The notes: generated from the sequence alone by a model not told the origin. 64,000 nucleotides of DNA from an uncultured delta proteobacterium (GCA_963702565.1 CAVPDE010000001.1:6104-70103); one strand, 5' to 3'. Positions 11,687-40,396 are shown, numbered from the stretch's first letter. Numbers and translations are program-made.

Positions 11687-11721
11687 CATGGGAAAAGGAG
11701 ATCAACGAAAGGAGAGGACTC

Positions 11722-20530: not shown

Positions 20531-20661
20531 TGCTGCCTCTGGTTCTTATGGGCAAGTCCAATACTGCAACCGAACCGCCGTCCAGCCGTTAGGTTCAACC
20601 AGGGCACTTCTGGGATATCTCCTTCACTCTATATCGAGAACCATACCTGATCAAATGCGGT

Positions 20662-22420: not shown

Positions 22421-22576
22421 AAATAGCCACTTGTGCCTCGCCAGAGTGCTGATACTCTCATCTATCATGCAATTCTTCCCATGTACGGCTCTTCACAGCT
22501 AACTTGCACATGGCACATCATCCGAGGATGTCAGGACGAGCAACCAAAGTCTGACCAAGTTTGTCATAAAGACACC

Positions 22577-23320: not shown

Positions 23321-23394
23321 GGCATTCCCCCCTTTTCTTCCTGTTCACTCGAAGTGACTCCCTATCTCCGTCCCGCCCAATCGCTATCACGTTC

Positions 23395-23774
23395 CTATTT
23401 GGCTTATACCCATAAGTCCGCTCCCTCGGCTGCCCTGGATTGGATACGGTCACACAATCACACTCGCCAGCCTGGTTGTTCACCGTTCCCCAAACCCATT
23501 CGTCAATCCCTTTGGCCCTCCGAAGGGGGTGTAAGTCACCCCGCTCACGAGATTGCCAAACCCAGTCGCGCTGACCGAAGCGATCTTCCCAAGCTGGCTG
23601 TCCCTCGTGTTGGTCACCACCCTCCCGCTCGGGTAGGTCACCGAAGCCACTCTCCTCCCGGTCCATAGGCGGACGTAACCGGGTAGTTTATGCTGTTAAT
23701 GGTGCTCGCCTTCTGCACCAGCCTTCCCCTCGAATCATACCCAAAGGCGATGATTCCCGATGGATCGTAAACCG
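23395..23774 (-). pseudogene. Orphan RHS core fragment (DPSG .. TYGYKPNRN), frameshifted
   Basis: Homologous to the distal RHS core. It is split between frames (ORF 23298..23666 changes from nonsense to GTVNNQAGECDCVTVSNPGQPRERTYGYKPNRN). Confidence 0.65.
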
Positions 23775-23830
23775 GTAGGTTTTAAGGTTGCTGGTGCGAA
23801 ACCTAAAAACCTTAGAACGTCCCTATTCTC
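23775..23830 (-). repeat. Cassette-boundary hairpin element, copy E3
   Basis: GTAGGTTTTAAGGTTGCTGGTGCGAAACCTAAAAACCTTAGAACGTCCCTATTCTC. Same family as 29009-29073, 32432-32495 and 40322-40396. Confidence 0.85.
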
Positions 23831-23959
23831 CAACAACCGCCTTGTGAGTCTGAGTGGGGAGCTTCAAAGGCTCACAACATTTAGCGGTTCATCACGCTGA
23901 CCATCATACAGAGCTACTGACTTTAGGACACGCTTCATCAAAAGTAGTAAGTCGCCAAT

Positions 23960-24238
23960 CTAATATAGAATCACCAAGATTGTTACGAACCACATAGCGG
24001 GGATACTGATTTTCACAACGATTCCCTTATAAAAGTGAAGCATGATTCCCGTGATGATCACTGAGCACCCAAACGTAAGAACGTTCCCTATTATGAAGGC
24101 AAGATCTCCTCGTGGAGAACCAAGGACCCTCTTGCCCACAAACACAAGGAAGAGCCAGACAGTGAAGAACAACACTACTCTGATTATCCTCCCTGGCTGA
24201 TTTTCCTCACCTGGCAAAACTCTTTGCTTTACTCGCAT
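23960..24238 (-). CDS. Small membrane protein, candidate immunity protein for toxin CT4
   Basis: 92-aa ORF with 3 hydrophobic helices in a visibly AT-richer stretch. Its ATG sits inside the last codons of the upstream ORF (ATGCGAGTAA). Confidence 0.5.
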   Translation of the reverse strand: MRVKQRVLPGEENQPGRIIRVVLFFTVWLFLVFVGKRVLGSPRGDLAFIIGNVLTFGCSVIITGIMLHFYKGIVVKISIPAMWFVTILVILY

Positions 24239-25641
24239 GGATTAGAACTCCATTTTTCCCATACATTTATATTTTCGTCTGGCATCCAAAGGAGATCAAA
24301 AACCTTTGGGGGTGGGTCGAAGTGGTCCTTGTAGTGCAGGAAAATCAGGAAGTCCTCGTTCGGAACACCGGCTTCCGATGGATTTAAGTAATCATAGGCT
24401 AAGATAGCAGCAGGAGTGATGGGGGTGTTCAATCCTTTCTCAATGATCGGGGCAATTACATCTCCCCCTCTAACGTACTTCTTCAGAGTATCTAGAATGG
24501 GGATAATAATTCCCCCCCTTTAACCCGGAAGGGTCCGTCCAATTAGTGGGGTTGTTTTGGACGTAGGCATAGAGATTCAGGCTTTGGGGAGTTACCAAGG
24601 TGTAGTGGTGCAGTGCATCCGCGATTACGAAACGCTGAAGTTCACGTAAACTCGTGAGCGCAGCCGGGGCTTGTACGATTTTGCCGAGTGACGATTGCCT
24701 GCCCATCTGAATCTGCGAAAGGTTAAGAGGATCAGGGGTGATGTACCTCCCAGTCTTTGGATCATAGTAACGGTTGTGGTTGTAGTGGAGGCCGGTCTCC
24801 GTGTCGTAATACTGGCCGGGCAGCCTGATGTTGTTCACCACGCTTGAGCTGGGATGGATATGGGCCTCACCAAATGGCTCATACCAGGCTTCCCAAGCCA
24901 CAGTCCCGTTGCATTCGTGAGGATTTCGGGAGTGCCGAGGCGGTCATTCAGGTAGTGGTAAAGCGCTTGCCACCAGCCACATCCACCATGGCAACACGGA
25001 CTTTGCCCATGTAGAGGTATTCCTTCGTCATGGTGCCGTTGGGCAGGCTCTCGGCAATCAGCTTCCCATCAAGGTCGTAATGGTAAACCGTGGTTACTCC
25101 CACCAGCGACCTTCTTCACCCTCTGTCCTAATCCGTTGTAGGTGTACGTGGCTATTGTGTTTGCTCCCTCCTTCACCTCCTTCAGCTGGTTGTTCTGGTC
25201 GTAAATGAAGGTCAGAGTGCCATCACTCGTGGGATTGCCGTTGGCATCATAGCTGAAGGTTCTCGGGTTTTGTCCCCCGGTGATCTGGTAAAGGCTGTTG
25301 GTTCCTGCATAGTAACGTGTAGTTCTCAACCGACTCCGTTGGTGTTCCTCGTGAGCCTGTTTCCCACATCATCATAGGTGTAGGCGATGGTGCCGTATCT
25401 TCCCGGGCAGAAGTCAAGCCTGTTCAGCTCATCATACCCGAAGGTCTGGTTGTACCAGGGAGTAGTCGTGCCGGTGATGGATGTGAGGTTGCGGTTTGAG
25501 TCATACCCATAGGTCCTCTCCCTCGGTTGTCCCGGATTGGACACGGTCACACAGTCGCACTCCCCCGCCTCGTTGTTCACCGTCCCCCAAACCCATTAGT
25601 CAAACCCTTTGGGCCTCCAAACGGGTTGTAAGTCAGTCCGC
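24229..25641 (-). pseudogene. Frameshifted continuation of the chimeric RHS copy B: distal core, PxxxxDPxGL end and toxin domain CT4
   Basis: ORF pieces 25326..25580, 25069..25329, 24470..24901 and 24229..24432 together reconstruct the RHS core end (GRYITPDP..NNPTNWTDPSGL) and a ~97-aa C-terminal domain if 1-nt indels are corrected. Confidence 0.65.
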
Positions 25642-28600
25642 TTACGAGATTGCCAAATCCGGTCGCGCTGACCGATGAGATCTTCCCGAGCGGCTGTTCC
25701 TCGTGTTCGTCACCACCCTCCCGCTCGGGTACGTCACCGAAGCCACTCTCCCTCCCGGTCCATAGGCGGAGGTAACCGGGTAGCTGATGCTGTTAATGGT
25801 GCTCGTCTTCTGCAACAACCTCCCCCTGGCATCATAGCCGAAGGTAATAGTCCCAGAGGGGTCGGCCATGTCCGTAAGATGACCTTTTCCGTTGGTGCGC
25901 AGATCATAGGTGTAGGCAATGTCATCAGCCGTCCCCGGATAGTCTGCCACAGTGACCCTGTTCAGGTTATCATAGGCGTATTCAACCGTCACAGCCTTGG
26001 CGTCCTTCTTATATCTCAGGTTCCCCGCCTCGTCATATGCATACCTCGTAATCCCCGTATCCGGAGAAGTCGTGGACACCACCCTCCCCAAATCGTCATA
26101 CACGTAGGTCGTGACGTGCGAGTTGGCATCCGTGACACTGGCGAGATTCCCCTGACCGTCATATCCGTATCCCGTTACCAGGTCCCTCAGGCTCGGATCA
26201 TTCACCCATTGCGCCACCTCCTCGATCCTATCCATGAAGTCATACCCGTAGGTCGTCAGATTCCCGTTCGGGTCTTCCATGGAACTCACATTCCCGGCAT
26301 CGTCATACCCGTATTCACGGTATGTGTCATCCGGCTGAATCTCCCGGTACAGCCTCCCAGGATAGCTGGGATGCTCATAACTCCACCGCGTCCTCGATTT
26401 GCGCTCATCACCGCTCGTGTACTTGCCCCTCTCAACCACGTTACCCCGGGGGTAAACTTCATAATCGTGCCTGATGTAGTTCGCCCCTTGATCGAGGATC
26501 TTCCAGAGCCTTGCGTAGTTATCATACTGGAACCCCTGGATTACACCGTCAGGGTCCGTCACCGAAACCAGCAGCCCTCCGACATAGGCAAACTGGGTGG
26601 AGCTGTCCGGATCATCGGCAAAATTCGTGATGGAGGTGATTCTTCCCCGGCCATCATAGGAAAAGCCCTTGGCCTGGCTGTTCACGTCCGTTATCGTCCC
26701 CGGCCTTCCCGCGTTATCGTAAACCGCAAAATAGGTGCTCCCGATATGAGGCTGGGTAACGGATTCCAGGTTGCCCGTGGAGCCGTTGTAGGTGAAGGTC
26801 GTCATATCCCCGCTGCCGGCCCTCGGACCGTCCACGGAGAGAACCTGGCCCTTGGCATTATAGGTGAAGGTCGTCACATATTCATAGGCCTGGGTCGTAT
26901 TGTTGATATCCTTCGTGTGTCCCTGCTCCACGATCCTGGAGAGCAGCAGGGTGGGGCTTTCATTGGCCGTGGCATCATAATCGTTGTCATAGTCCCAGAT
27001 CGTCACCTTGTTCCCGCCGCCAAAAACGCTCGCCTCTGTCCGCGTCAGGGGCACGTTCATGTCCGGATGAAAGGTGTAGTAAATGGTCCGCTGCTCGGGT
27101 GATCCGTAAGCCAAAATGACGGTTCCCGGATTCCCTCTCTCATCGTAATTCTGGTAGCGGTCTATTCTCCCTCCCCCGTATTCCACCTCGGAGAGCCTTC
27201 CCCACTCATCATAAACCCACTCCACGGCATTGCTCTCTGCATAGGGCGCATTGGTGGTCCCCGTCATTGAGCCCAGTCTTTTCAGCCCATCGACGGTCAC
27301 CAGAGCGTAGGTTCGGGTAATGTCATAGACATCCTTCACCTGCACCTGGTTGGGTTGATAAGTGACCAGCTCCACCCCCTTCCCGTCGGGCGATCGGCAG
27401 ACAGTAGCCTGGTCATTCGTGTTGTAGGACCACTCCCGGAGGATATGATTGAGGGAGTCCTTTTTCTGGGTAAGATTGTGAACGTCATTGGCGTCGTTGT
27501 AGACATAAGTGATTCCCGACCCGTCAGCATAGGTCACCGTGGTCAGGTTCTGGTTCCCGTCATAGCCGTATTCCACCCATATCCCGTCATCTACAGCAGC
27601 CGTGACAGGCCCGGTGATGCTTGTCAGCAGCCCGCTGGTGTAATTAAAAGTGAGCACCCGGCCGCTGGCATTGTCGGTCACGGTCTGGAGCCGTCCCTCG
27701 CCGTCATAGGCAAGGGCCAGGGCATTCCCCTTTTCGTCCTCCATCGAACTGAGCCGGCCTGCACTCGTGAATGCGTACCGGCTTCCGTCAAGCCGGTACC
27801 AGGAATACCCTCCTCCCTCGGCCAGGACAAAGCTTCGCTCCCCAAACACTCCTGCATAGTATCCCGTGACCTCTTGAATGAAATACGAGGCTTTGCCGGT
27901 TCCGTCGATGATCTTCAGGAAAGTCCTGCTCCCGAGTTGAGAGGAGGGGTTGAGCGCAGCGCCAAAACTGTGGAACCAGCCATAACCGAGCATCCCGGTC
28001 TGAGTCGCCCGGCTGTTGTAGGCGGCTCTGAAGTTGAAGCTAAGGCTGTTGGGTGAGGGAAAGCTCAGATCTTCCCTGTACTCCAGTGCATTTCCGTTCG
28101 TGATCCTGATGGAGCCTGCCACCAATCCCGCCTCGCCTTGCTGTTCCTCCGGAGCGTAACCCAAGCCCTCGTCCTGGTAGGAATCCGAAGAGGGCGGCAC
28201 TTCGTTTTGGTTGCCAGGGTCTGTGTTGAAGACGTATTCCAGGTAATTTGAAAAGCCGTCACCGTCGTGATCGCCGTTCCTCCCCTGGCTCAGGTCAGGG
28301 AAGTACGCAAGCTCCCACCAGTCAGGAAGCTCGTCACCATCATCATCCCTGCCATAAGGGATGCTCGTTACAGCGACTGTGGCACTATCCGTTGCCGTGC
28401 CCCCTGGGCCGACAGCGGTAATCACATAGGTAGTGGTCACCTCAGGAGTCACCTTGTAGCTCTCAGTGACCCCGTTGGTGTTCCTCGTGACCCTGTTCCC
28501 CACATCGTCATAGGTGTAACCGATGTTTCCGTATCGCCCGCTGGCACTAGTCAACCTGTTCAGTTCGTCATACCCGAAGGTCTGGTTGTACCAGGGGGTA

Positions 28601-28953
28601 GTTGTGCCGGTGATGGAAGTGAGGTTGCGGTTTGCATCATACCCGTAAGTGCGCTCTCTCGGCTGTCCAGGGTTGCACACGGTCACGCAATCACACTCCC
28701 CAGCCTGGTTGTTCACAGTACCTCCGAAGCCATTCGTCAATCCCTTGGGGCCTCCAAACGGGTTGTAGGTCAACCCGCTTACGAGATTGCCGAACCCACT
28801 CGCGCTGACCGAGGCGATCTTCCCAAGCTGGCTGTCCCTCGTATTCGTCACAACCCTCCCGCTGGGATATGTCACCGAAGCCACTCTCCCTCCCGGTCCA
28901 TAGGCGGAGGTAACAGGGTAGCTGATGCTGTTAATGGTGCTCGTCTTCTGCAC
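25642..28953 (-). CDS. RHS/YD-repeat protein, chimeric copy B (orphan core end fused to a duplicate of the main gene from its Ig-like domain onward); no signal peptide
   Basis: 1103-aa ORF. The first ~160 aa are distal-core sequence ending NTNGVTESY, joined to KVTPEVTTTYVITAVGPGG and then many YD repeats nearly identical to 34731-37210. Confidence 0.75.
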   Translation of the reverse strand: MQKTSTINSISYPVTSAYGPGGRVASVTYPSGRVVTNTRDSQLGKIASVSASGFGNLVSGLTYNPFGGPKGLTNGFGGTVNNQAGECDCVTVCNPGQPRERTYGYDANRNLTSITGTTTPWYNQTFGYDELNRLTSASGRYGNIGYTYDDVGNRVTRNTNGVTESYKVTPEVTTTYVITAVGPGGTATDSATVAVTSIPYGRDDDGDELPDWWELAYFPDLSQGRNGDHDGDGFSNYLEYVFNTDPGNQNEVPPSSDSYQDEGLGYAPEEQQGEAGLVAGSIRITNGNALEYREDLSFPSPNSLSFNFRAAYNSRATQTGMLGYGWFHSFGAALNPSSQLGSRTFLKIIDGTGKASYFIQEVTGYYAGVFGERSFVLAEGGGYSWYRLDGSRYAFTSAGRLSSMEDEKGNALALAYDGEGRLQTVTDNASGRVLTFNYTSGLLTSITGPVTAAVDDGIWVEYGYDGNQNLTTVTYADGSGITYVYNDANDVHNLTQKKDSLNHILREWSYNTNDQATVCRSPDGKGVELVTYQPNQVQVKDVYDITRTYALVTVDGLKRLGSMTGTTNAPYAESNAVEWVYDEWGRLSEVEYGGGRIDRYQNYDERGNPGTVILAYGSPEQRTIYYTFHPDMNVPLTRTEASVFGGGNKVTIWDYDNDYDATANESPTLLLSRIVEQGHTKDINNTTQAYEYVTTFTYNAKGQVLSVDGPRAGSGDMTTFTYNGSTGNLESVTQPHIGSTYFAVYDNAGRPGTITDVNSQAKGFSYDGRGRITSITNFADDPDSSTQFAYVGGLLVSVTDPDGVIQGFQYDNYARLWKILDQGANYIRHDYEVYPRGNVVERGKYTSGDERKSRTRWSYEHPSYPGRLYREIQPDDTYREYGYDDAGNVSSMEDPNGNLTTYGYDFMDRIEEVAQWVNDPSLRDLVTGYGYDGQGNLASVTDANSHVTTYVYDDLGRVVSTTSPDTGITRYAYDEAGNLRYKKDAKAVTVEYAYDNLNRVTVADYPGTADDIAYTYDLRTNGKGHLTDMADPSGTITFGYDARGRLLQKTSTINSISYPVTSAYGPGGRVASVTYPSGRVVTNTRNSRSGRSHRSARPDLAIS
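25975..28454 (-). repeat. 2.48-kb near-identical direct repeat, copy 2 (partner 34731-37210, offset 8756 bp)
   Basis: Shadow ORFs 27355..28056, 28065..28262 and 27336..27530 are identical in sequence to 36111..36812, 36821..37018 and 36092..36286. Only a handful of aa substitutions occur across the RHS frame. Confidence 0.9.
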
Positions 28954-29008
28954 CAGCCTCCCCCTCGAATCATACCCAATGGCGATGATTCCCGATGGAT
29001 CGTAAACC

Positions 29009-29073
29009 GGGACGCCAGTAGGTTTTAAGGTTGCTATTGCGAAACCTTAAAACCTTAGGATGTCCCCATTCTC
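29009..29073 (-). repeat. Cassette-boundary hairpin element, copy E2
   Basis: GGGACGCCAGTAGGTTTTAAGGTTGCTATTGCGAAACCTTAAAACCTTAGGATGTCCCCATTCTC. It has a perfect 13-bp stem, 29020-29032 with 29043-29055. Confidence 0.85.
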
Positions 29074-29245
29074 TCTCGTGGCATTTCTAAATGTCAATGG
29101 TCCCTATAATGAAAGTCTTGGGGAACGTTTCAAACTGCGCCGGGCCAAGAGCTTGCTCCCTATCGGAAGGCTGAAGGAGAGGCGCGGGCTGAGAAAAGAG
29201 GGATTTGGTCTCTCGGCGACAATTACTTGAGCCCTAGGGATAGGG

Positions 29246-30019
29246 TTATTGACATGTCCAAGCCTGGTAGGTCACCCAGCTGTAGTAAGGATACCCGTTG
29301 CCGAAACTGCACGAACAGGCAGACCAATCCGCACAAGCCGAAGGACCACCACACGGCGGGTTTGGTTCATACCAGTGGCTCCAGTTTCCTATAGGTTGGT
29401 TAGCGCATTGGTCCTGGTAATGGTAAAAATCTGTCTGAAGCAACCATCTATGGGCATTTCCGTTGTAAATATATCGAGCACGAGGATTGGGGGGATCGCC
29501 ACAAATACTAAGCCCCGGAATCATAAGGTTAACATCATCCCTCCAAACTGGTTTCCAATCTCCATTGCTGCTCCTCAGGTCGCTGGTAGCCCTCATTCCA
29601 GCCTCATCCGAAATGCTTACTGCGACTGTTCCACAAGCATTATTTTCAGCGCATAGGTCAATACTTTCACCATCGCGATCAGTTACTGCAATCTGGCTTT
29701 GGCCTCCTTCGGTATTGAAATAGAAATTATCTCCAGATACTATTTCTAAGGTGAAAGGAGGTTTTGCGAAGCCGTCGGAGTTCACCTTAACCCCCACGCA
29801 TTGGCCACCAGGAAGCGTGCCTTCCACCAAACTACCCCAATCCACGCCCATTGTAAGAACGACCGTAGACTCCCAGTTCACAGGGTACGTCAACGCCTGC
29901 CCTGAACTCGTAGGGACAATGCACATGTTCTCCTGCGCCCAGGCCCCTGCGCTCATGCTCACGAACACCACCAAGAACAGACAACAAAAAGCCAGCCTAT
30001 TCACAGCCCATCTTCTCAT
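29246..30019 (-). CDS. Cys-rich secreted protein, paralogue P1 (unknown family)
   Basis: ATG at 30019 after aaaaggggggg. Signal peptide MRRWAVNRLAFCCLFLVVFVSMSAGAWAQENMC. The N-terminal ~130 aa are close to P3 and the C-terminal Cys-rich part is divergent. Confidence 0.6.
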   Translation of the reverse strand: MRRWAVNRLAFCCLFLVVFVSMSAGAWAQENMCIVPTSSGQALTYPVNWESTVVLTMGVDWGSLVEGTLPGGQCVGVKVNSDGFAKPPFTLEIVSGDNFYFNTEGGQSQIAVTDRDGESIDLCAENNACGTVAVSISDEAGMRATSDLRSSNGDWKPVWRDDVNLMIPGLSICGDPPNPRARYIYNGNAHRWLLQTDFYHYQDQCANQPIGNWSHWYEPNPPCGGPSACADWSACSCSFGNGYPYYSWVTYQAWTCQ

Positions 30020-30094
30020 GGCCTTCCCCCCCTTTTCTTCCTGTTGACTCGAAGTGACTTTCGATCTCTGCCCCACTCAATCGCCATCACGTTC

Positions 30095-30418
30095 CTGTTT
30101 GGCTCATGCCCATACGTCCGCTCCCTCGGCTGCCCCGGGTTGGATACGGTCACACAATCACACTCCCCAGCCTGGTTGTTCACCGTTCCCCCGAACCCAT
30201 TCGTCAAACCCTTGGGCCCTCCGAAGGGGTTGTATGTAAGGCCGCTCACGAGATTGCCAAATCCGGTCGCGCTGACCGAAGCAATCTTCCCAAGCTGGCT
30301 GTCCCTCGTATTCGTCACCACCCTCCCGCTGGGATATGTCACCGAAGCCACTCTCCCTCCCGGCCCATAGGCGGAGGTAACCGGGTAGGCTACGCTGCTG
30401 ATGGTGCTAGTCTTCTGC
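30095..30418 (-). pseudogene. Orphan RHS core fragment (QKTSTISS .. TYGHEPNRN), not preceded by the hairpin element
   Basis: ORF 30016..30351 reads MASVTYPSGRVVTNTRDSQLGKIASVSATGFGNLVSGLTYNPFGGPKGL..NPGQPRERTYGHEPNRN, then the conserved leader. Confidence 0.65.
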
Positions 30419-30480
30419 TTAGGCGGACACCGCCCTCAGAAGGGGTAGCTGTCAGACGAAATCTTAGCAACTACAGTTTA

Positions 30481-30762
30481 TCAAAGCCCTTTGCCACACT
30501 TAGTGCATTTCTTCGGAATCCAAGAAGTCCAGATACGCAGTTCGGTCCCGAAAACCTTTATGGGATTGGATAAGACTGGCTTCCCGCAATTCGGACACTT
30601 AAGTTTTAGACAGCATCCTCCAAGCACAAAAGCCACCACAATTAGAGGAACTAAGAAGTATTCTGTGAGGTATACTGTGCCGAACAACAAAATGAAGCCA
30701 CTCACCATCCAAACCAACAGTATTATCCGAAATTTTGCTCTTACAGTCATTTGCACCTGCAT
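30481..30762 (-). CDS. Small membrane + zinc-ribbon protein, candidate immunity protein for toxin CT2
   Basis: 93-aa ORF with two hydrophobic helices and CPNCG..CTKCG. It is AT-richer than its surroundings and starts 1 nt after the CT2 stop (TAGGATG). Confidence 0.55.
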   Translation of the reverse strand: MQVQMTVRAKFRIILLVWMVSGFILLFGTVYLTEYFLVPLIVVAFVLGGCCLKLKCPNCGKPVLSNPIKVFGTELRIWTSWIPKKCTKCGKGL

Positions 30763-30763
30763 C

Positions 30764-32431
30764 CTATTCGCACGGATTCAATTGAGTTGCCTCCCAAAAT
30801 CGATTGTTCTCTTGTGCCAAGGATTTCAAAAGGCGGAGTAAGTCTCGAAGGGTGAATGTCCCGGTAAGGCTAACCGTGCCAGAGGCTCCAATCGGGGTAG
30901 CGCTGGGACCGAAACCTATCGTACCACCGATGATCTCCTTCGATGTCGGGTCACCAATTAGTGTAATGCTAATAGGGCCAGCGACAATGTTAATATTTGT
31001 CGTTAATCCACGGACGTTTCCGATGCCTCCGCGAACAAATCCAGCAAAGATGTCAGCTGAGATATTTACTCCTCCTCCAGAGCCGACTGAGCCAAACACC
31101 CCTACATCAGCTTTATCTTTCCCTAAGCCAGGATTGATTACAACACCTCCACTTCCTTCTATTCCAGTGGGGGCTACGGCACTCCCGCCAATCCCTAGCA
31201 AAAAGTCTATAAGCCCAAGAGGATCAATGGAGTTCACTGGATTGTTTCTCACATAAGCGAAAAGGTTTATTCCCCCTACCTGCCCAATCGGATCAGGTGT
31301 GATGTATCTCCCAGTCTTGGGATCCTGGTAACGATGCAGGTTGTAATGGAGGCCCGTCTCGGCATCGTAATACTGGCCGGGCAACCGGATGTTGTTCACC
31401 ACGCTGGAGCTGGGATGAACATGGGCTTCGCCAAATGGCTCATACCAGGCTTCCCAGGCAACAGTTCCGCCCGCATTGGTCAGGATTTCGGGGGTGCCGA
31501 AGCGGTCATTAAGATAATGATAAATCGCATTGCCTCCAGTCACATCGACCATTGCAACCCTAACCTTGCCCATGTACAGGTATTCCCGGGTCATGGTGCC
31601 GTTGGGCAGGCTCTCGGCTATCAGCTTCCCATCAAGGTCGTAATGGTAAAGCGTGGTTATCCCACCAGCGACTTTCTTCACCCTCTGTCCAAGGCCGTTA
31701 TAGGTGTAGGTGGCTATCGCAGTCTGGCCCTCTTTCGCCTCTTTGAGCTGGTTGTTCTGGTCATAGATGAAGGTCAGAGTTCCGTCGCTCGTAGGATTGC
31801 CGTTGGCATCGTAGCTGAATGTTCTCGGGTCTTGTCCCCCGGTGATCTGGTAAAGACTGTTGGTTCCCGTGTAGTAACTGTAGCTCTCAGTGACCCCGTT
31901 GGTGTTCCTCGTGACCCTGTTCCCACATCATCATAGGTGTAGGCAATGGAGCCATACCTGCCTGATGCACTGGTCAACCTGTTCAGTTCGTCATACCCGA
32001 AGGTCTGATTGTACCAGGGCGTGGTTGTTCCCGCGATGGATGTGAGGTTGCGGTTTGGGTCATACCCATACGTCCGCTCCCTCGGCTGTCCTGGATTGGA
32101 TACGGTCACACAATCGCATTCCCCAGCCTGGTTGTTCACCGTTCCCCGAACCCATTCGTCAGCCCCGTCGGCCCTCCAAACGGCTTGTAAGTCAACCCGC
32201 TTGCCAGGGGTGTAGCAATTCCGCTCGCTGTCAGTTCCGAGATCTTTCCAAAAGCGTTCCTACCGTATGTCGTCACCCTCCCGCCCGGATAGGTCACAGA
32301 ACCGACCTTCCCTCCAAGCGTGTAGGAATACGTCACCGGGTAGTTGATGCTGTTGATCGTGCTCGTCTTCTGCACCAGCCTTCCCCTCGCATCGTAGGCG
32401 AATGCGATCAGTCCCGATGGATCGTAAACCT
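30764..32431 (-). pseudogene. Orphan RHS core end + glycine-rich C-terminal toxin domain CT2 (frameshifted in the core part; the last ~380 codons are open)
   Basis: ORF pieces 32136..32570, 31774..32139 and 30764..31681. The core end GRYITPDPIGQVGGINLFAYVRNNPVNSIDPLGL is followed by a Gly-rich domain (GIGGSAVAPTGIEGSGGVVINPGLG..GSVGSGGGVN). Confidence 0.7.
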
Positions 32432-32495
32432 GGGCGCCGGTAGGTTTTAAGGTTAATGGTGCGAAACCTAAAAGCCTTAGAACGTCCCCATTCTC
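32432..32495 (-). repeat. Cassette-boundary hairpin element, copy E1
   Basis: GGGCGCCGGTAGGTTTTAAGGTTAATGGTGCGAAACCTAAAAGCCTTAGAACGTCCCCATTCTC. Confidence 0.85.
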
Positions 32496-32553
32496 CTCAC
32501 GCCCGCCTCCTGTGATGGCCGTTCCTTCATCCGCATTCCGTATATCTGAATGA

Positions 32554-32940
32554 CTATTTGCTTTTCTCATAGTAGTAACCTAGGTCAGCATCAATATACA
32601 GCCGAAGGTTCCCTGCGAATGACCTCTTCACTTCCACGACCCAAAAACCAGCTTGCGTGGATCCGTATCCAGGTAACCCAAAAACAAAGCCGTGAAAAGT
32701 GAGCGTGGATCGGCCCTCAGAATATTCAAACTCCCACTTGTTGGCGTTCTTGATCTCTTTACCATCAAACGCCTTGTAATCGTAGGTGTAGGTTCCATCT
32801 GGCTTCAGATCGAGTGAATCAATACCCTTTTGATGGTTTGCCTTGTATTTCCCAAGGACCATCGGCCTTTCAATTGGCTTTTCACACCCGAAACAAATTA
32901 ATAGTAAAGCAAAGAGCATGGCAATTCCGATTCTGTTCAT
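32554..32940 (-). CDS. Lipoprotein, candidate immunity protein for toxin CT1
   Basis: 128-aa ORF with signal/lipobox MLFALLLICFGC in an AT-richer stretch. Its ATG overlaps the toxin stop (ATGA). Confidence 0.55.
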   Translation of the reverse strand: MNRIGIAMLFALLLICFGCEKPIERPMVLGKYKANHQKGIDSLDLKPDGTYTYDYKAFDGKEIKNANKWEFEYSEGRSTLTFHGFVFGLPGYGSTQAGFWVVEVKRSFAGNLRLYIDADLGYYYEKSK

Positions 32941-34736: not shown

Positions 34737-37210
34737 TCAACCGTCACAGCCTTGGCGTCCTTCTTCATATCTCAGGTTCCCCGCCTCGTCATATGCATAC
34801 CTCGTAATCCCCGTATCCGGAGAAGTCGTGGACACCACCCTCCCCAAATCGTCATACACGTAGGTCGTGACGTGCGAGTTGGCATCCGTGACACTGGCGA
34901 GATTCCCCTGGCCGTCATATCCGTATCCCGTTACCACGTCCCTCAGGCTCGGATCATTCACCCATTGCGCCACCTCCTCGATCCTATCCATGAAGTCATA
35001 CCCGTAGGTCGTCAGATTCCCGTTCGGGTCTTCCATGGAACTCACATTCCCGGCATCGTCATACCCGTATTCACGGTATGTGTCATCCGACTGAATCTCC
35101 CGGTACAGCCTCCCAGGATAGCTGGGATGCTCATAACTCCACCGCGTCCTCGATTTGCGCTCATCACCGCTCGTGTACTTGCCCCTCTCAACCACGTTAC
35201 CCCGGGGGTAAACTTCATAATCGTGCCTGATGTAGTTCGCCCCTCGATCCAGGATCTTCCAGAGCCTAGCGTAGTTATCATACTGGAACCCCTGGATTAC
35301 ACCGTCAGGGTCCGTCACCGAAACCAGCAGCCCTCCGACGTAGGCAAACTGGGTGGAGCTGTCCGGATCATCGGCAAAATTCGTGATGGAGGTGATTCTT
35401 CCCCGGCCATCATAGGAAAAGCCCTTGGCCTGGCTGTTCACGTCCGTTATCGTCCCCGGCCTTCCCGCGTTATCGTAAACCGCAAAATAGGTGCTCCCGA
35501 TATGAGGCTGGGTAACGGATTCCAGGTTGCCCGTGGAGCTGTTGTAGGTGAAGGTCGTCATATCCCCGCTGCCGGCCCTCGGACCGTCCACGGAGAGAAC
35601 CTGGCCCTTGGCATTATAGGTGAAGGTCGTCACATATGCATAGGCCTGGGTCGTATTGTTGATATCCTTCGTGTGTCCCTGCTCCACGATCCTGGAGAGC
35701 AGCAGGGTGGGGCTTTCATTGGCCGTGGCATCATAATCGTCGTCATAGTCCCAGATCGTCACCTTGTTCCCGCCGCCAAGCACGCTCGCCTCTGTCCGCG
35801 TCAGGGGCACGTTCATGTCCGGATGAAAGGTGTAGTAAATGGTCCGCTGCTCGGGTGATCCGTAAGCCAATATCACGGTTCCCGGATTCCCTCTCTCATC
35901 GTAATTCTGGTAGCGGTCTATTCTCCCTCCCCCGTATTCCACCTCGGAGAGCCTTCCCCACTCATCATAAACCCACTCCACGGCATTGCTCTCTGCATAG
36001 GGCGCATTGGTGGTCCCCGTCATTGAGCCCAGTCTTTTCAGCCCATCGACGGTCACCAGAGCGTAGGTTCGGGTAATGTCATAGACATCCTTCACCTGCA
36101 CCTGGTTGGGTTGATAAGTGACCAGCTCCACCCCCTTCCCGTCGGGCGATCGGCAGACAGTAGCCTGGTCATTCGTGTTGTAGGACCACTCCCGGAGGAT
36201 ATGATTGAGGGAGTCCTTTTTCTGGGTAAGATTGTGAACGTCATTGGCGTCGTTGTAGACATAAGTGATTCCCGACCCGTCAGCATAGGTCACCGTGGTC
36301 AGGTTCTGGTTCCCGTCATAGCCGTATTCCACCCATATCCCGTCATCTACAGCAGCCGTGACAGGCCCGGTGATGCTTGTCAGCAGCCCGCTGGTGTAAT
36401 TAAAAGTGAGCACCCGGCCGCTGGCATTGTCGGTCACGGTCTGGAGCCGTCCCTCGCCGTCATAGGCAAGGGCCAGGGCATTCCCCTTTTCGTCCTCCAT
36501 CGAACTGAGCCGGCCTGCACTCGTGAATGCGTACCGGCTTCCGTCAAGCCGGTACCAGGAATACCCTCCTCCCTCGGCCAGGACAAAGCTTCGCTCCCCA
36601 AACACTCCTGCATAGTATCCCGTGACCTCTTGAATGAAATACGAGGCTTTGCCGGTTCCGTCGATGATCTTCAGGAAAGTCCTGCTCCCGAGTTGAGAGG
36701 AGGGGTTGAGCGCAGCGCCAAAACTGTGGAACCAGCCATAACCGAGCATCCCGGTCTGAGTCGCCCGGCTGTTGTAGGCGGCTCTGAAGTTGAAGCTAAG
36801 GCTGTTGGGTGAGGGAAAGCTCAGATCTTCCCTGTACTCCAGTGCATTTCCGTTCGTGATCCTGATGGAGCCTGCCACCAATCCCGCCTCGCCTTGCTGT
36901 TCCTCCGGAGCGTAACCCAAGCCCTCGTCCTGGTAGGAATCCGAAGAGGGCGGCACTTCGTTTTGGTTGCCAGGGTCTGTGTTGAAGACGTATTCCAGGT
37001 AATTTGAAAAGCCGTCACCGTCGTGATCGCCGTTCCTCCCCTGGCTCAGGTCAGGGAAGTACGCAAGCTCCCACCAGTCAGGAAGCTCGTCACCATCATC
37101 ATCCCTGCCATAAGGGATGCTCGTTACAGCGACTGTGGCACTATCCGTTGCCGTGCCCCCTGGGCCGACAGCGGTAATCACATAGGTAGTGGTCACCTCA
37201 GGAGTCACCT
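34731..37210 (-). repeat. 2.48-kb near-identical direct repeat, copy 1 (partner 25975-28454)
   Basis: See the partner entry. The constant 8756-bp offset is verified at several ORF boundaries. Confidence 0.9.
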
Positions 37211-39851
37211 GAAGGGAGCCGCTCGGAGCGACGCTGCCGATCCCGGGTTCGATAGAGCATGACTCGGCATGAGTAGACGTCCACGACAGGTTGGCCGATT
37301 CCCCGGCGTGAATGGTCTGAGGGGTCGCCGTTATGCTGGCCGTTGGCATTGGCGCAGACCCCAGGGAGACGACCAGGTCAACCAGTGAGCCTCCTGCCAC
37401 AGAGGTTCCGGCTGCCGGATTCTGGCTGATCACCAGGCCCTCTGCAACCGTGGCGCTGTATTGATGCGACGTTGTTCCAACAGCGAGTCCTGCCGCGGTG
37501 ATGGTCGCTCCCGCATCCATCTGGGAAAGCCCCACCACATCAGGGACCTGAATCGTTCCCGGGAGAGTCACGATGGTTACAGAATTGACCTGTCCAGCAA
37601 CAATGCCACTCGCACCACTCCAGTACTGACCGCCTTGATAATCAGCCCTGAAGTCGTATGTGCCCCCAGGGAGGGTGAAGAATGCCTTGCCGCTCCCGTT
37701 TGTCGTTCCGGACACTCCCACATACGCACCCGCTGCCGAAAAAACATACACGTTCACTCCGGGCAAAGGAAGTCCTGAGCCGGTGACTGTAACCTCCGCA
37801 TCCCCCATAGGGATGCTGACCGTGGCGTTCTGCCATTGGAACACCTCGGACCAGTAATGCTGGCCCAGGTAATCCGCTCTCACCTTGTAAGCCTGAATGG
37901 GCAGATGGAAGGTGACCTGTCCGTTGCCGTCGGTCAGCTGGGACTGGCCCAGGTAAGCGCCCGATGCCGTGAAGAGGTAAACCGGCACTCCTGCCATGGG
38001 GCTGGATCCCTGGTTCACCCCCTGCACACTGATCACGACGTCCTGGTGGGGGATCGTAAGCGTTCCGGACAAGGACGCTGGAACGGAAAAAATGTCGCTC
38101 CAGAACTGGTATCCGAGATGGTCAGCACGGAATTTATAGCTGCCATTGGAAAGATTGAAAGAGACCCCCCCGGTACTATTGCTGGCGCCGCTCATGCCGA
38201 GATAACTGCCCGCTCCGCTGAATACGTAACAATTCACTCCGCTAATAGGAGCTGCCGGGCCCTTCTGGATGGTCAGGGCGAATGCTCCGCCCCCGGTGGA
38301 TACGGTGACAGGATTTATTTGCCCTGCGATGAGAGACTCCACCCCGCTCCAATACTGGCTGGACTGGTAGTCGGCTCGATACTTGTAGGAGCCTGCGGGG
38401 AGACCGAAAACAACTTTCCCGCTGGAGTCGGTCGAACTGGAGATTCCAAGATAGGCGCCGGCCTCTGAGAACACGTACACATTCACACCGGGCAAAGGGA
38501 GCCCTGAGCTGGTCACCGTCACCTCAGAATCCCCCATCGGGATGGTAACGGTCTTGTCCTGCCACGTGAAGGGTTCTGACCAGAACTGCTGGCCAAGATA
38601 ATCGGCCCGAATCTTGTAAGCGCTCTCAGGGAGGTTGAAGATCACTTCCCCGCTGCTGTTTGTCACGAGGGATTGGCCGAGGTATGAGCCGGAAGCCGTG
38701 AAAAGATAAACACTTAGGCCCTGCATCGGATAGGGGCTTCCCTGGTTCAAGCCATCCACTCTGACCGTCACATCCTGATGCTGTATTGTGAGCGCGCCTG
38801 ACAGGGACGCCGGAACGGAATAGACATCGCTCCAGAACTGGTACCCGAGATAGTCCACCCGGAACTTGTAGGTGCCATTGGATAGATTAACGGAGACCAA
38901 GCCGCCTGAATCGGTCGTTCGGCTGATGCCCAAGTAAGTCCCCGCTTCATTGAACAGATAGCAGTTCACTCCGGCCAGAGGATCTGACGCACCTCTTTGG
39001 ACGGTCAAGCTGAACGATCCGCCTCCGGTCGATATGGCGACGGGGTTGGTTTGACCGCCAACGATAGGCTCCTCGCTGCTCCAGAATTGGCTGGCCTGGT
39101 AGTCGGCCCGGTACTTGTAAGACCCTGCTGGAAGGGTGAAAACCGCCTTGCCGCTGGAGTCAGTAGTACCGTGGACTCCGAGATATGCACCTGCCGGCGA
39201 GAAGACGTACACATTCACACCGGGCAAAGGGAGCCCTGAGCCGGTCACTGTTATCTCCGCATTCCCCATGGAAATAGTGACTGTCTCGTCCTGCCACTGG
39301 AAAACCTCTGACCAGTACTGTCGGCCAAGGTAGTCCACCCGTGCTTTGTAAGATTTCTCGGGAAGGTTGAAGACCGCCTCTCCGTTGCTATCAGTTACCC
39401 GGGATTGCCCCATGTAAGACCCCGAGCCCGTGAAGAGATAAACTTTCAACCCTTGCATCGGGTACGGGGTTCCCTGGTTCAAGCCCTCCACCCCAATCAC
39501 TACCTCCTCATGGGGGATCGTCAGAACGCCGGACACGGAAGTGGGAACCGAATAGATCTGGCTCCAGAACTGGTACCCGAGATAGTCTATGCGGAATTTG
39601 TAAGAGCCGTCGGCAAGATCGAACGTCACATCCCCACTGCTGTTGGTGGCTCCCGCTTTGCCCAGATAGCTGCCCCCTCCGCTGAATACATAACAGTTCA
39701 CCCCGACCAGCGGCTCCGTCTCGCTCTTATTCACTGTCAGGGTGAACGGAGTGCCAGGGTCGCCGTAGACAGGCAGAGCGCTGAGGTTCACAAAACAAAA
39801 CAGGGCCAGAAGGCAGAAGAGATTCCTAGTCGAGGTTGTCTTTGGGGCCAT
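34737..39851 (-). CDS. Main RHS/YD-repeat polymorphic toxin: Sec signal, nine beta-sandwich repeats (3x3), PASTA, Ig-like, Ca-binding D-rich linker, RHS core (open part up to the first frameshift)
   Basis: The ATG at 39851 follows GGGAGGAGG. Signal peptide MAPKTTSTRNLFCLLALFCFVNLSALPVYG. Repeats are of the type GVNCYVFSG.GSYLG..SSG.V.F.L..GSYKFR.DYLGYQFWS. PASTA is VPDVVGLSQMDAGATITAAGLAVG..GLVISQNPAAGTSV, and many YD repeats follow. Confidence 0.85.
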   Translation of the reverse strand: MAPKTTSTRNLFCLLALFCFVNLSALPVYGDPGTPFTLTVNKSETEPLVGVNCYVFSGGGSYLGKAGATNSSGDVTFDLADGSYKFRIDYLGYQFWSQIYSVPTSVSGVLTIPHEEVVIGVEGLNQGTPYPMQGLKVYLFTGSGSYMGQSRVTDSNGEAVFNLPEKSYKARVDYLGRQYWSEVFQWQDETVTISMGNAEITVTGSGLPLPGVNVYVFSPAGAYLGVHGTTDSSGKAVFTLPAGSYKYRADYQASQFWSSEEPIVGGQTNPVAISTGGGSFSLTVQRGASDPLAGVNCYLFNEAGTYLGISRTTDSGGLVSVNLSNGTYKFRVDYLGYQFWSDVYSVPASLSGALTIQHQDVTVRVDGLNQGSPYPMQGLSVYLFTASGSYLGQSLVTNSSGEVIFNLPESAYKIRADYLGQQFWSEPFTWQDKTVTIPMGDSEVTVTSSGLPLPGVNVYVFSEAGAYLGISSSTDSSGKVVFGLPAGSYKYRADYQSSQYWSGVESLIAGQINPVTVSTGGGAFALTIQKGPAAPISGVNCYVFSGAGSYLGMSGASNSTGGVSFNLSNGSYKFRADHLGYQFWSDIFSVPASLSGTLTIPHQDVVISVQGVNQGSSPMAGVPVYLFTASGAYLGQSQLTDGNGQVTFHLPIQAYKVRADYLGQHYWSEVFQWQNATVSIPMGDAEVTVTGSGLPLPGVNVYVFSAAGAYVGVSGTTNGSGKAFFTLPGGTYDFRADYQGGQYWSGASGIVAGQVNSVTIVTLPGTIQVPDVVGLSQMDAGATITAAGLAVGTTSHQYSATVAEGLVISQNPAAGTSVAGGSLVDLVVSLGSAPMPTASITATPQTIHAGESANLSWTSTHAESCSIEPGIGSVAPSGSLQVTPEVTTTYVITAVGPGGTATDSATVAVTSIPYGRDDDGDELPDWWELAYFPDLSQGRNGDHDGDGFSNYLEYVFNTDPGNQNEVPPSSDSYQDEGLGYAPEEQQGEAGLVAGSIRITNGNALEYREDLSFPSPNSLSFNFRAAYNSRATQTGMLGYGWFHSFGAALNPSSQLGSRTFLKIIDGTGKASYFIQEVTGYYAGVFGERSFVLAEGGGYSWYRLDGSRYAFTSAGRLSSMEDEKGNALALAYDGEGRLQTVTDNASGRVLTFNYTSGLLTSITGPVTAAVDDGIWVEYGYDGNQNLTTVTYADGSGITYVYNDANDVHNLTQKKDSLNHILREWSYNTNDQATVCRSPDGKGVELVTYQPNQVQVKDVYDITRTYALVTVDGLKRLGSMTGTTNAPYAESNAVEWVYDEWGRLSEVEYGGGRIDRYQNYDERGNPGTVILAYGSPEQRTIYYTFHPDMNVPLTRTEASVLGGGNKVTIWDYDDDYDATANESPTLLLSRIVEQGHTKDINNTTQAYAYVTTFTYNAKGQVLSVDGPRAGSGDMTTFTYNSSTGNLESVTQPHIGSTYFAVYDNAGRPGTITDVNSQAKGFSYDGRGRITSITNFADDPDSSTQFAYVGGLLVSVTDPDGVIQGFQYDNYARLWKILDRGANYIRHDYEVYPRGNVVERGKYTSGDERKSRTRWSYEHPSYPGRLYREIQSDDTYREYGYDDAGNVSSMEDPNGNLTTYGYDFMDRIEEVAQWVNDPSLRDVVTGYGYDGQGNLASVTDANSHVTTYVYDDLGRVVSTTSPDTGITRYAYDEAGNLRYEEGRQGCDG

Positions 39852-40321
39852 CTTTTCCTCCTCCCAATATGTGGTCAATGAGCCCAGTTTCTTCTTCTGT
39901 TATTTCAACCGCGTCTGAGAAAACCTGCTTAAGTCTTAATCCGATGGAGCCAGTTAGGGTTACTGTTGGCAATCTGGAATTTGACTTCTTGCTGGGACTG
40001 GAACTGAAAGCAAGGGATGAAGAAACACTTCTCGCATTTCTGTACGCAATTGCGGTGCCAGAACTTGGTCTTCCGGAGAGTAATTTCTCTTAGGAAACGT
40101 AGCTAAACGAGAACACGGCCCTATGTATTCACTGCCTCGCCTTCCACAGCAAGGTGAGCCGGCATTTTGCGGAGCTCTTGCTCCGAGGGATTGCACAATT
40201 CCTTGTGCTGCACTGCACAGAAAAGAGTGCAGAGGGAACGCAGAAGTCGGCTTCAAGGGTTTGTACTTACGGCTACTCCGTCTTCATTTCCGACAGATGA
40301 TCCTTCCACGTATGATAAACT

Positions 40322-40396
40322 GGGACGCTGTTAGGTTTTAAGGTTGCTAGCGATCGTCTCTTGGAAACCTAAAAACTATAGGATGTCCCCATTCTC
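40322..40396 (-). repeat. Hairpin element, copy E0 (enlarged loop), ~470 bp upstream of the main RHS start
   Basis: GGGACGCTGTTAGGTTTTAAGGTTGCTAGCGATCGTCTCTTGGAAACCTAAAAACTATAGGATGTCCCCATTCTC. Confidence 0.8.

What the first reader, a model, noticed from the sequence alone, without database searches (positions are those of the whole stretch)
23775..40396. Conserved 56-75 bp hairpin element upstream of the RHS gene and at three cassette boundaries, fused to the same RHS codon
There are four copies in the same orientation: 40322-40396, 32432-32495, 29009-29073 and 23775-23830. The minus-strand consensus is GAGAATGGGGAC.T.CTAAGG.TTTTAGGTTTCGC-loop-AACCTTAAAACCTAC.GGCGTCCC. The inner stem is up to 13 perfect bp (AGGTTTTAAGGTT/AACCTTAAAACCT), flanked in the longer copies by an outer GGGAC/GTCCC pair. 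In three copies the element is followed immediately by GTTTAC-GATCCATCGGGA, the start of RHS homology (V-Y-DPSG). Three orphan modules therefore share one identical illegitimate junction. The fourth copy sits in the 5' leader of the full-length gene, ~470 bp before its ATG. One copy is translatable and another contains an in-frame stop, so it acts as DNA or RNA, not protein. It was not seen anywhere else in the 64 kb. Candidate roles are a recombination or integration site for incoming rhs tips, a REP-like GTAG-headed structure, a promoter or leader that lets orphans be expressed, or an RNA processing or terminator element after the immunity genes.
Basis: seen in the sequence. Interest (0 to 1): 0.8.

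Follow-up and report, generated by a model that had tools for sequence, protein, structure and literature searches.

The report
Transposon-end mini-hairpin bounding rhs toxin cassettes
The repeated hairpin is real, but it is most likely a tiny remnant of a jumping gene: its two arms look like the two ends of an insertion sequence found at the same spot in a sister strain, and it became fused once to an rhs toxin-gene fragment and was then copied along with it, so there is no sign of a new recombination or RNA system.

Summary
There are four same-strand copies (A 40316-40396, B 32424-32495, C 29002-29073, D 23767-23830) and none elsewhere in the 64 kb. B, C and D are joined at the same nucleotide to the same rhs core segment (S). 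A fifth copy (E), with the same junction, follows a different toxin/immunity pair in a ~90%-identical strain.

The element is not an RNA motif: no Rfam hit, no terminator, no covariation. It is not a canonical attC and not a dispersed REP. No recombinase lies in the window.

Both arms align to the terminal inverted repeats of an IS1182-like insertion sequence. That IS sits just downstream of the same immunity gene in a sister contig. The motif GGGAC[GA]-N4-8-GGTTTT occurs in 664 kb of held DNA only in the element arms and at that IS terminus.

Best reading (~0.55): a MITE-like pair of IS ends. One IS-mediated truncation fused it to S, and the element+S unit then spread and diverged (79-89%) with the cassettes by homologous recombination. 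A weak outward promoter (TTAAAA-N18-TAYSAT) is possible but untested. Related arrays have varied junctions and lack the element.

Side finding: in another assembly the whole locus is a 19.9-kb circularly permuted contig, with its junction in the loop of copy A.

The parts
40316..40396 (-). Element copy A. It has an 18-nt loop and degraded stems, lies 37 nt after the stop of the cNMP-binding/FHA gene, and is 471 nt before the rhs ATG. No S segment follows it.
   Evidence: The flanks are unrelated to those of the other copies. The conserved rhs leader only starts at ~40008.
32424..32495 (-). Element copy B, 61 nt after the stop of the 128-aa immunity gene of the main rhs and fused to S.
   Evidence: The sequence is identical in the short-read contig L025.
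29002..29073 (-). Element copy C, the only copy with the perfect 13-bp inner stem. Its 5' part is A-like. It is fused to S.
23767..23830 (-). Element copy D. An 8-bp deletion has removed the right terminus (GGCGTCCC). It is fused to S.
31251..32423 (-). S segment of orphan B: rhs C-terminal core, homologous to main 33443-34617 at 79%.
28455..29001 (-). S fragment of orphan C (about main 34071-34617, 86%). At 28454 it is joined abruptly to a 96% duplicate of main 33496-37210.
23191..23766 (-). S fragment of orphan D, followed by a signal-peptide protein gene (22577-23320).
   Evidence: P0130
32940..39851 (-). Full-length rhs: signal peptide, CarboxypepD_reg repeats, PASTA, DUF6531, YD shell and toxin tip. 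Its in-line S starts at 34617. The frameshifts seen in the window are homopolymer assembly errors.
   Evidence: (2291-aa intact homolog)
32554..32940 (-). 128-aa lipoprotein-like immunity gene of the main tip. The same gene in sister contigs L028 and L030 is followed by an IS end or a full IS instead of element B.
24743..28454 (-). 3.7-kb duplicate of the main rhs core plus tip, forming the body of orphan C.
29796..30418 (-). 5'-truncated S copy that starts at a different position and has no element.
20662..22313 (-). Last orphan. Its rhs core is cut at ~22074 by an ISL3 transposase fragment (Zn_ribbon_ISL3, 22038-22313). This is a second IS-bounded orphan in the same array.
20446..20458 (-). 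Partner of the 20452|40355 junction seen in contig_70210 (microhomology GATC), inside the 3' end of the AMIN-domain gene.

Best explanation
The element is a miniature, non-autonomous derivative of an insertion sequence, i.e. a MITE-like pair of terminal inverted repeats about 72-82 bp long. The 'outer stem' (GGGAC/GTCCC) and the 'inner stem' (AGGTTTTAAGGTT/AACCTTAAAACCT) are simply the conserved blocks of a left and a right IS end facing each other, which is why the DNA is palindromic. Inferred history: an IS or MITE copy lying downstream of an immunity gene and a copy (or its deletion endpoint) inside an rhs core produced one truncation junction, element|GAYCCATCGGG. That event created an orphan starting at codon DPSG. 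The element+S unit (0.4-1.2 kb) has since been carried along with different tip/immunity cassettes by ordinary homologous recombination between S repeats (unequal crossing-over, gene conversion, cassette replacement) and has diverged together with S. Copy A is a separate occurrence of the same mini-element behind an unrelated gene. Shown here: the existence of the copies, the shared junction, co-divergence with S, restriction to this lineage, and similarity of both arms to the IRs of an IS1182-like element at the equivalent position in a sister strain. Inferred: past mobility, the order of events, and any present function. Possible functions are a palindrome that promotes breakage and rearrangement, or an outward hybrid promoter TTAAAA-N18-TAYSAT for the orphan and immunity genes.
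For: (1) Boundaries are sharp on both sides and there are two different right-hand contexts (S in B-E, unique DNA in A). Five unrelated left flanks each lie 37-175 nt after a co-directional stop codon. (2) L030 carries the same immunity gene (95% DNA identity, with homology ending 18 nt before where element B starts). It has a 1.9-kb IS there with an IS1182-like transposase. The IS inverted repeats, found independently by the repeat finder, begin with GGGACGT. (3) The reverse complement of the IS right end, GATAGAAGGGACGTACATGGTTTTAGATTCC, aligns to the element's left arm GGAGAATGGGGACGTTCTAAGGTTTTTAGGTTTC. The IS left end shares ATGGGGACGTTC with copies B and E. All 12 termini align in register at GGGAC. 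For the left arm, the best and second-best local matches in L030 are the two IS termini, both oriented outside to inside. (4) The motif GGGAC[GA]-N4-8-GGTTTT occurs in 664 kb (both strands) of all DNA held only in both arms of the element copies (five of the eight arms in the window) and at that IS terminus. (5) L028 and L029 (same immunity gene) have an IS-end-like GAGAAAGAGGGACGTCCATGAAAT directly after the gene. (6) Identity among B-E is 79-88% for the element and 76-89% for S (C-D, B-C and B-D; the pairs with E read lower, 63-77%, because E's S is interrupted), so they evolve as one unit. (7) Copy E in L018/L022 follows a different tip and a 198-aa immunity gene, so the unit persists across cassette exchange. 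(8) Another orphan in the same array is cut by an ISL3 fragment, so IS-mediated truncation demonstrably shapes this locus.
Against: Alignment scores between the element halves and the IS ends (20-24) are within the range of maxima seen in control DNA (16-25). A single 12-mer match is not significant on its own. The case therefore rests on positional coincidence and was noticed post hoc. The IS in L030 is not the parent: its inner IR (GATTCCTGAGAAGT) is absent from the element, and no IS with matching ends was found. No target-site duplication can be shown. There are only two independent contexts (A, and B-E), so mobility is unproven. No copies occur in the 44 kb of non-rhs DNA in the window. 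The right arms match the IS ends less well than the left arms.
Confidence: 0.55

Rival explanations
1. The element is an inert junction repeat with no transposon origin. One illegitimate deletion fused a piece of intergenic or leader DNA (like copy A) to the rhs core. The fused unit then spread by homologous recombination, and the similarity to IS ends is coincidence.
For: The element and S co-diverge. There is no covariation. The IS-end alignment scores are not significant on their own. Related arrays show that orphan junctions are normally one-off illegitimate events.
Against: It does not explain why A and B-E share sharp boundaries on both sides with unrelated flanks. It does not explain why both arms begin exactly like the IRs of an IS located at the equivalent site in a sister contig.
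Confidence: 0.15
2. The element is kept because it is a regulatory module: an outward promoter that drives the silent orphan and, above all, its immunity gene. The -35 TTAAAA lies in the right arm and the -10 TAYSAT at the junction. The palindrome may act as an operator or insulator. This is compatible with an IS/MITE origin.
For: Copy A scores 9/12 (TTAAAA-N18-TATCAT). B, C and E have TTAAAA-N18-TACGAT (8/12, read), and this spacing is unaffected by loop length. GTTTAYSAT is conserved in A beyond the palindrome. Internal promoters that express orphan rhs toxin/immunity pairs are documented in Salmonella (PMC7043789).
Against: The number of promoter-like sites in the region equals chance expectation (11 against 11.1). 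Copy D has lost the spacing. The rhs of strain L018 lacks copy A upstream. No expression data exist.
Confidence: 0.12
3. The element is a dedicated site-specific recombination site (attC-like or Xer-like) through which rhs tip/immunity cassettes are inserted and excised.
For: It is a two-tier imperfect palindrome with a variable loop at cassette boundaries, all in one orientation. It has a sharp 5' boundary with five different upstream cassettes. The junction of the circularly permuted contig lies in the loop of copy A.
Against: No integrase or recombinase lies in the 64 kb. RYYYAAC/GTTRRRY boxes are absent, and 13-bp arms with a 10-20-nt spacer do not fit tyrosine-recombinase core sites (read). 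The same cassette in L028 and L030 lacks the element. Related arrays L021, L023 and L019 have varied junctions. The right junction is always the same S codon and co-diverges with S. The circular junction partner at 20452 has no element.
Confidence: 0.05
4. The element is an RNA-level feature: a 3'-end stabiliser, terminator or processing hairpin after the immunity genes.
For: It always lies 37-175 nt downstream of a co-directional stop codon. Copy C forms a very stable hairpin.
Against: It has no U-tract and is not called by the terminator scan. There is no Rfam match. All stem variation breaks pairs and there are 0 compensatory changes. Minus-strand folds of A, B and D are no better than shuffles, and the antisense strand folds better.
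Confidence: 0.05
5. The element is a generic REP/BIME-type repeat mobilised by a RAYT transposase.
For: It is a short palindrome in 3' intergenic positions. CCTAC (GTAG on the other strand) abuts the stem in B, C and D.
Against: There are 0 copies in about 44 kb of non-rhs DNA against 4 in 17 kb of rhs DNA. The GTAG head is not conserved (A has TTAG, E has GCAG). No RAYT is present in the window. The exact core was not found in 185,579 species genomes or the JGI metagenomes, although that pattern was too strict.
Confidence: 0.03

Closest known systems
MITEs / solo IS-end pairs (e.g. Neisseria Correia elements, enterobacterial ERIC/IRU, pneumococcal RUP)
   Same: It is short (about 70-80 bp) and consists essentially of two terminal inverted repeats that can fold into a hairpin. 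It has sharp ends, sits in intergenic 3' regions, resembles the ends of a full-length DDE insertion sequence present in the same population, and has a possible outward promoter.
   Different: No target-site duplication is demonstrable. Only two independent contexts are seen and no dispersed copies. The parent IS with identical ends was not found. Four of the five copies owe their position to co-propagation with an rhs segment rather than to transposition.
Rhs / CDI orphan arrays formed by C-terminal displacement (Jackson 2009; Poole 2011, PMC3150448; E. coli Rhs elements with H-rpt/ISAs1)
   Same: A full-length rhs is followed by tip/immunity orphans that retain part of the core. Strain-to-strain replacement of tip plus immunity happens between conserved flanks. 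IS elements are embedded in the locus.
   Different: In typical arrays, and in the related arrays L021, L023 and L019 examined here, each orphan has its own junction. Here three orphans in one genome and one in a second strain share a single junction capped by the same non-coding element.
Conserved non-coding repeats flanking silent cassettes in antigenic-variation systems (e.g. the Neisseria pilE/pilS Sma/Cla repeat). This comparison is from my own knowledge and was not tested.
   Same: A short conserved non-coding repeat marks the edge of each silent cassette and extends the homology available for recombination with the expressed gene.
   Different: No evidence that the element is required for recombination. 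It lies at the 5' edge of the silent copies. The expressed gene has it in a different context, 470 nt upstream.
Integron attC sites and recombinase-associated immunity-gene arrays (rAID; from my own knowledge)
   Same: Imperfect palindromes with a variable loop between co-oriented cassettes.
   Different: No integrase, no R/L box consensus, the element is fused to a coding segment, and it is absent from the same cassette in other strains.

Membership tests
MITE / IS-derived terminal-repeat pair | Two terminal inverted repeats facing each other with little or no internal sequence | tested here: met
   Left arm GGGACGTTCTAAGGTTTTTAGGTTTC and the reverse complement of the right arm GGGACGCCAGTAGGTTTTAAGGTTGC align in register in all copies.
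MITE / IS-derived terminal-repeat pair | Ends homologous to the IRs of an autonomous IS in the same or related genomes | tested here: inconclusive
   The IRs of the IS1182-like element in L030 start GGGACGT, and its right end carries GGTTTTAG.TT.C as the element does. The motif is unique to these sites in 664 kb. However, alignment scores alone are within the control range, and the inner IR differs.
MITE / IS-derived terminal-repeat pair | Target-site duplication flanking each insertion | tested here: not met
   No direct repeat flanks any copy. For B-E this is expected if the left and right flanks come from different sites. For A only a displaced GTGG is seen.
MITE / IS-derived terminal-repeat pair | Multiple independent insertion contexts in the genome | tested here: inconclusive
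   Two contexts are seen (A, and B-E). The rest of the genome was not available. There are no copies in 44 kb of flanking DNA.
Rhs orphan array (C-terminal displacement) | A full-length rhs followed by 5'-truncated core+tip modules, each with its own immunity gene | tested here: met
Integron attC | R''/R' boxes (RYYYAAC ... GTTRRRY) and a nearby IntI integrase | tested here: not met
   Neither strand has the boxes (GTTTACG has pyrimidines at the RRR positions, and there is no 5' AAC box). No integrase is found in the 64 kb.
REP/BIME with RAYT | A conserved GTAG/CTAC head, many dispersed intergenic copies, and a tnpA-REP gene | tested here: not met
   The head is present in 3 of 5 copies. All window copies are in the rhs locus. 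No RAYT is in the window. Genome-wide copy number is not testable.
Intrinsic terminator | A GC-rich stem followed by a U-tract | tested here: not met
   The scan does not call any copy, and GGUUUAC is the only U-run.
Structured RNA family (Rfam) | A match to a covariance model, or covariation supporting the helix | tested here: not met
   There are 0 gathering-threshold hits. Only E>2 noise appears around copies A and C. There are 0 compensatory pairs, and all 9 departures break pairs.
Sigma-70 promoter | -35 and -10 hexamers with 16-18 nt spacing | tested here: inconclusive
   A scores 9/12; B, C and E score 8/12; D is disrupted. The count in the region equals the shuffled expectation.

The most novel reading that the evidence does not exclude
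The palindromic element is an active recombination hotspot that drives turnover of the rhs array. Hairpin or cruciform breakage at the element would mobilise whole cassettes, or the whole 19.9-kb locus, as circles or tandem amplifications. The evidence pointing this way is the circularly permuted contig whose junction lies in the loop of copy A. In this reading the conserved element-S junction is maintained because it is the entry point for incoming tips, i.e. an integron-like cassette system for polymorphic toxins that uses a domesticated transposon end.
Probability: 0.08. Interest if true: 0.75.

Novelty: new member of a known kind. Interest (0 to 1): 0.3.

Why it matters
The finding documents, in an uncultured Desulfobacterota-type genome, how insertion-sequence remnants define the 5' edges of silent rhs toxin cassettes. 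One such junction has survived about 20% sequence divergence and cassette exchange between strains. This is useful for annotating orphan modules, and it is a caution that a conserved hairpin at cassette boundaries need not be a recombination site or an RNA. If the palindrome turns out to promote breakage, amplification or orphan/immunity expression, it would add a concrete mechanism to rhs array dynamics. Nothing here yet requires that.

Tried and rejected
(1) I ran exact-pattern scans of the GTDB species genomes and the JGI metagenomes with AGGTTTCN{6,20}AACCTTAAAACCTA. They gave 17 hits, all chance: low-GC genomes with no outer GGGAC. Absence from those collections is therefore weak evidence.

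(2) A protein search with a short profile of the translated element missed even known positives, so it is uninformative. An exhaustive HMMER search of 1.84 billion representatives found only P0133 (copy E) covering the element part.

(3) I checked for a degenerate element copy at the 20452 junction partner. nhmmer --max finds nothing there, so this is rejected.

(4) I tested whether A's downstream 315 nt is a decayed S. blastn and tblastx give no similarity, so this is rejected.

(5) I tested whether a conserved terminator, GGCGGTTGAGGA..., is a general cassette 3' end. It occurs only in L028 and L030.

(6) I looked for a right IS end in L028 just before its orphan. The resemblance seen by eye is not supported by alignment.

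(7) Searches of the plasmid collection for the element and for a close parent IS found only a 20-nt chance match and IS1182 transposases at 29% identity or less.

(8) Rfam at permissive thresholds and the terminator scan gave nothing.

Full report
**Observation.** The four copies exist as described, all on the minus strand: A 40396-40322, B 32495-32432, C 29073-29009 and D 23830-23775. A degenerate core pattern finds them against 0.01 expected by chance. An nhmmer profile built from the copies, run with filters off, finds nothing else in the 64 kb; the next hit has E>2. B, C and D are each followed by GGTTTAC|GATCCATCGGGA. Homology to the in-line rhs core begins at GAYCC, equivalent to position 34617 of the full-length gene, where the in-line sequence reads ...ATGACC GACCCC.... 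GTTTAY therefore belongs to the element (A has GTTTAT), and the three orphans do share one non-homologous junction. The perfect 13-bp stem is found only in copy C (dG -30 kcal/mol, z -5). On the minus strand A, B and D fold no better than shuffled sequence.

**Locus anatomy.** The window comes from a MAG contig of 79,862 bp. P0001 is 100% identical to the main gene, and homologs carry names such as Thermodesulfobacteriota and Desulfobacterales. The main gene is a Sec-type Rhs with CarboxypepD_reg repeats, PASTA, DUF6531 and a YD shell. It is flanked by ordinary chromosomal genes. The frameshifts that break rhs in the window are homopolymer indels relative to a short-read contig, and homologs are intact (2291 aa in L018). 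They are assembly errors. A self-comparison shows one core segment, S (main 34617 down to 33443), present seven times. It occurs in-line in the main gene and in a 3.7-kb 96% duplicate of it (24743-28454). It follows elements B, C and D. It also occurs twice without any element: at 30418, with a different start point, and at 22074, cut by an ISL3 transposase fragment.

**Comparative evidence.** The exact-core scans of the genome and metagenome collections returned only chance hits. That pattern later proved too strict. Related DNA was instead reached through proteins.

- L018 (identical to L022), about 90% identical in rhs, has an intact rhs with a different toxin tip and a 198-aa immunity gene. 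This is followed by a fifth copy (E, L018:8296-8367) fused to S at the same nucleotide.
- L018 has no copy A upstream. Homology with the window starts only at 40006-40008, and this is also where the more distant arrays L021 and L023 begin to match.
- L019, L021 and L023 (rhs 73-90% identical) have orphans with varied junctions and no element.
- An exhaustive HMMER search of 1.84 billion representative proteins with the translated element plus 24 residues of S found only the ORF of copy E covering the element part.

The element is therefore lineage-restricted. It is not a general feature of these arrays. It is also not a recent duplication, since B-E are 79-88% identical to each other.

- RNA: there are no Rfam hits at gathering thresholds, and only noise at E<=10 around copies A and C. 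No terminator is called. Across five copies the right arm is invariant and every left-arm change breaks a pair, with 0 compensatory changes.
- Conservation: within B-E, 72% of element columns are invariant against 53% for S. S also contains a 15-nt invariant run, so the 13-nt invariant arm is not exceptional. Pairwise identities of the element and S track each other, while the 60 nt upstream are at random level.
- Recombination site: no integrase, invertase, RAYT or other recombinase lies in the 64 kb. attC boxes are absent. The 10-20-nt spacer between the 13-bp arms does not fit tyrosine-recombinase core sites.
- Promoter: TTAAAA-N18-TATCAT scores 9/12 in A, and TTAAAA-N18-TACGAT scores 8/12 in B, C and E. 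The regional count of such sites equals chance. This idea is left open. Internal promoters that drive orphan rhs toxin/immunity expression are known in Salmonella (PMC7043789).

**What the element most likely is.** The immunity gene that precedes copy B has relatives at 90% or more protein identity on other contigs.

- In L030 the DNA homology (95%) runs 44 nt past the stop codon and ends 18 nt before the point where element B begins. About 190 nt further on sits a 1.9-kb IS with an IS1182-like transposase (Pfam DUF772 + DDE_Tnp_1 + DDE_Tnp_1_6; NCBIfam NF033551).
- Its terminal inverted repeats, located independently by the repeat finder (546-577 and 2394-2425), begin with GGGACGT. This is the element's 'outer stem'.
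- Read from outside to inside, the IS right end is GATAGAA-GGGACGTACATGGTTTTAGATTCC. The element's left arm is GGAGAATGGGGACGTTCTAAGGTTTTTAGGTTTC. The IS left end shares ATGGGGACGTTC with copies B and E. The reverse complement of the element's right arm is GTAAACCGGGACGCCAGTAGGTTTTAAGGTTGC.
- All twelve termini align in register.
- In L028 and L029 the same immunity gene is followed directly by GAGAAAGAGGGACGTCCATGAAAT, another end of this type.
- The motif GGGAC[GA]-N4-8-GGTTTT occurs in 664 kb (both strands) of all sequence held only in the arms of the element copies and at the IS right terminus.

A caveat applies. Local alignment scores (20-24) lie within the range of maxima from control DNA, and a lone 12-mer is not significant. 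The argument is positional: the best and second-best matches of the left arm in L030 are the two IS termini in the correct orientation. I estimate the probability of that under chance at roughly 1e-4, but the estimate is post hoc.

I therefore read the element as a MITE-like pair of IS ends. The hairpin is a by-product of terminal inverted repeats, not a designed structure. Copy D has lost its right terminus through an 8-bp deletion.

**How the shared junction arose (inference).** One IS- or MITE-mediated truncation fused the element to the rhs core at codon DPSG. The most likely routes are recombination or an adjacent deletion between a copy downstream of an immunity gene and a point inside an rhs core. 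The resulting element+S unit is the left edge of a 0.4-1.2-kb repeat. Cassettes are duplicated, displaced and exchanged between these repeats by homologous recombination. This explains three things: the co-divergence of the element and S, the different cassettes found upstream of each copy, and the L018/window difference in which tip plus immunity is replaced between conserved flanks. The 5' parts of the copies fall into two types (A and C against B, D and E, including 14-20 nt upstream), which do not follow the S relationships. This points to gene conversion within the unit. An ISL3-cut orphan in the same array shows that IS truncation really happens at this locus.

**Side finding.** contig_70210 of ENA assembly ERZ25039459 (19,900 bp; L024 plus L020) is an exact circular permutation of window 20452-40355. 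It starts at 37206 and ends at 37208. It is 98.8-99.7% identical to the window, and the differences are mostly substitutions. Position 20452 is joined to 40355 at a GATC microhomology, which lies in the loop of copy A. This could reflect a tandem duplication, an excised circle or an assembly chimera. There is no element copy at 20452. It keeps alive, at low probability, the idea that the palindrome is a breakage hotspot.

**Verdict.** The best explanation is a new, lineage-restricted MITE-like IS remnant that caps a propagated rhs orphan junction. This is a new member of a known kind and of modest interest.

Noticed in passing
window 20452 and 40355; L020:13272/13273; L024+L020 = contig_70210: In ENA assembly ERZ25039459 the whole rhs locus is a 19,900-bp contig that is an exact circular permutation of window 20452-40355. 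It starts at 37206 and ends at 37208. The novel junction falls at a GATC microhomology inside the loop of element copy A and inside the 3' end of the AMIN-domain gene. It could be a tandem duplication, an excised circle or an assembly chimera.
   Followed up: partly
window 33051-33649 (e.g. 33625, 33548, 33064) and S regions near 34500 and 23650: The window carries homopolymer indels relative to a short-read contig (L025: 3 gaps, 0 mismatches in 1.5 kb). The apparent frameshifts and pseudogenisation of the main rhs and several orphans are therefore largely long-read assembly errors.
   Followed up: yes
window 24743-28454 vs 33496-37210; junction 28454/28455: Orphan C is chimeric. A 548-bp S fragment is joined abruptly to a 3.7-kb, 96%-identical duplicate of the main rhs core plus tip. 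This gives a 1,100+-aa 'orphan' that contains a second, in-line S.
   Followed up: partly
window 22038-22313 (-) and 22074: An ISL3 transposase N-terminal fragment (Zn_ribbon_ISL3) is fused directly to the rhs core of the last orphan. This is a second IS-bounded orphan in the array.
   Followed up: partly
window 29249-30418, 22577-23767, ~21160-22074; L018:8590-9023: A module of 3'-truncated S followed by a 247-276-aa signal-peptide protein with no Pfam match occurs three times in the window and once in L018. Its function is unknown; it may be a lipoprotein- or immunity-like gene captured into the repeat.
   Followed up: no
L030:528-2443; L028:1342-1400: A full IS1182-like element lies downstream of the same immunity gene in a sister strain. 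In L028 an IS end is inserted in the loop of a canonical terminator (GGCGGTTGAGGATTTTTCT...), which suggests that this IS type targets terminator hairpins behind immunity genes.
   Followed up: partly
window 37669-39705: There are internal ~730-bp tandem repeats at ~73% identity in the 5' part of the main rhs, encoding the repeated CarboxypepD_reg-like domains.
   Followed up: no
window 8418-10898 (-) and 13518-16121 (+), flanking 11671-12942: Two paralogous GlnD-type uridylyltransferase genes flank an ammonium transporter gene. This is unrelated to the finding.
   Followed up: no
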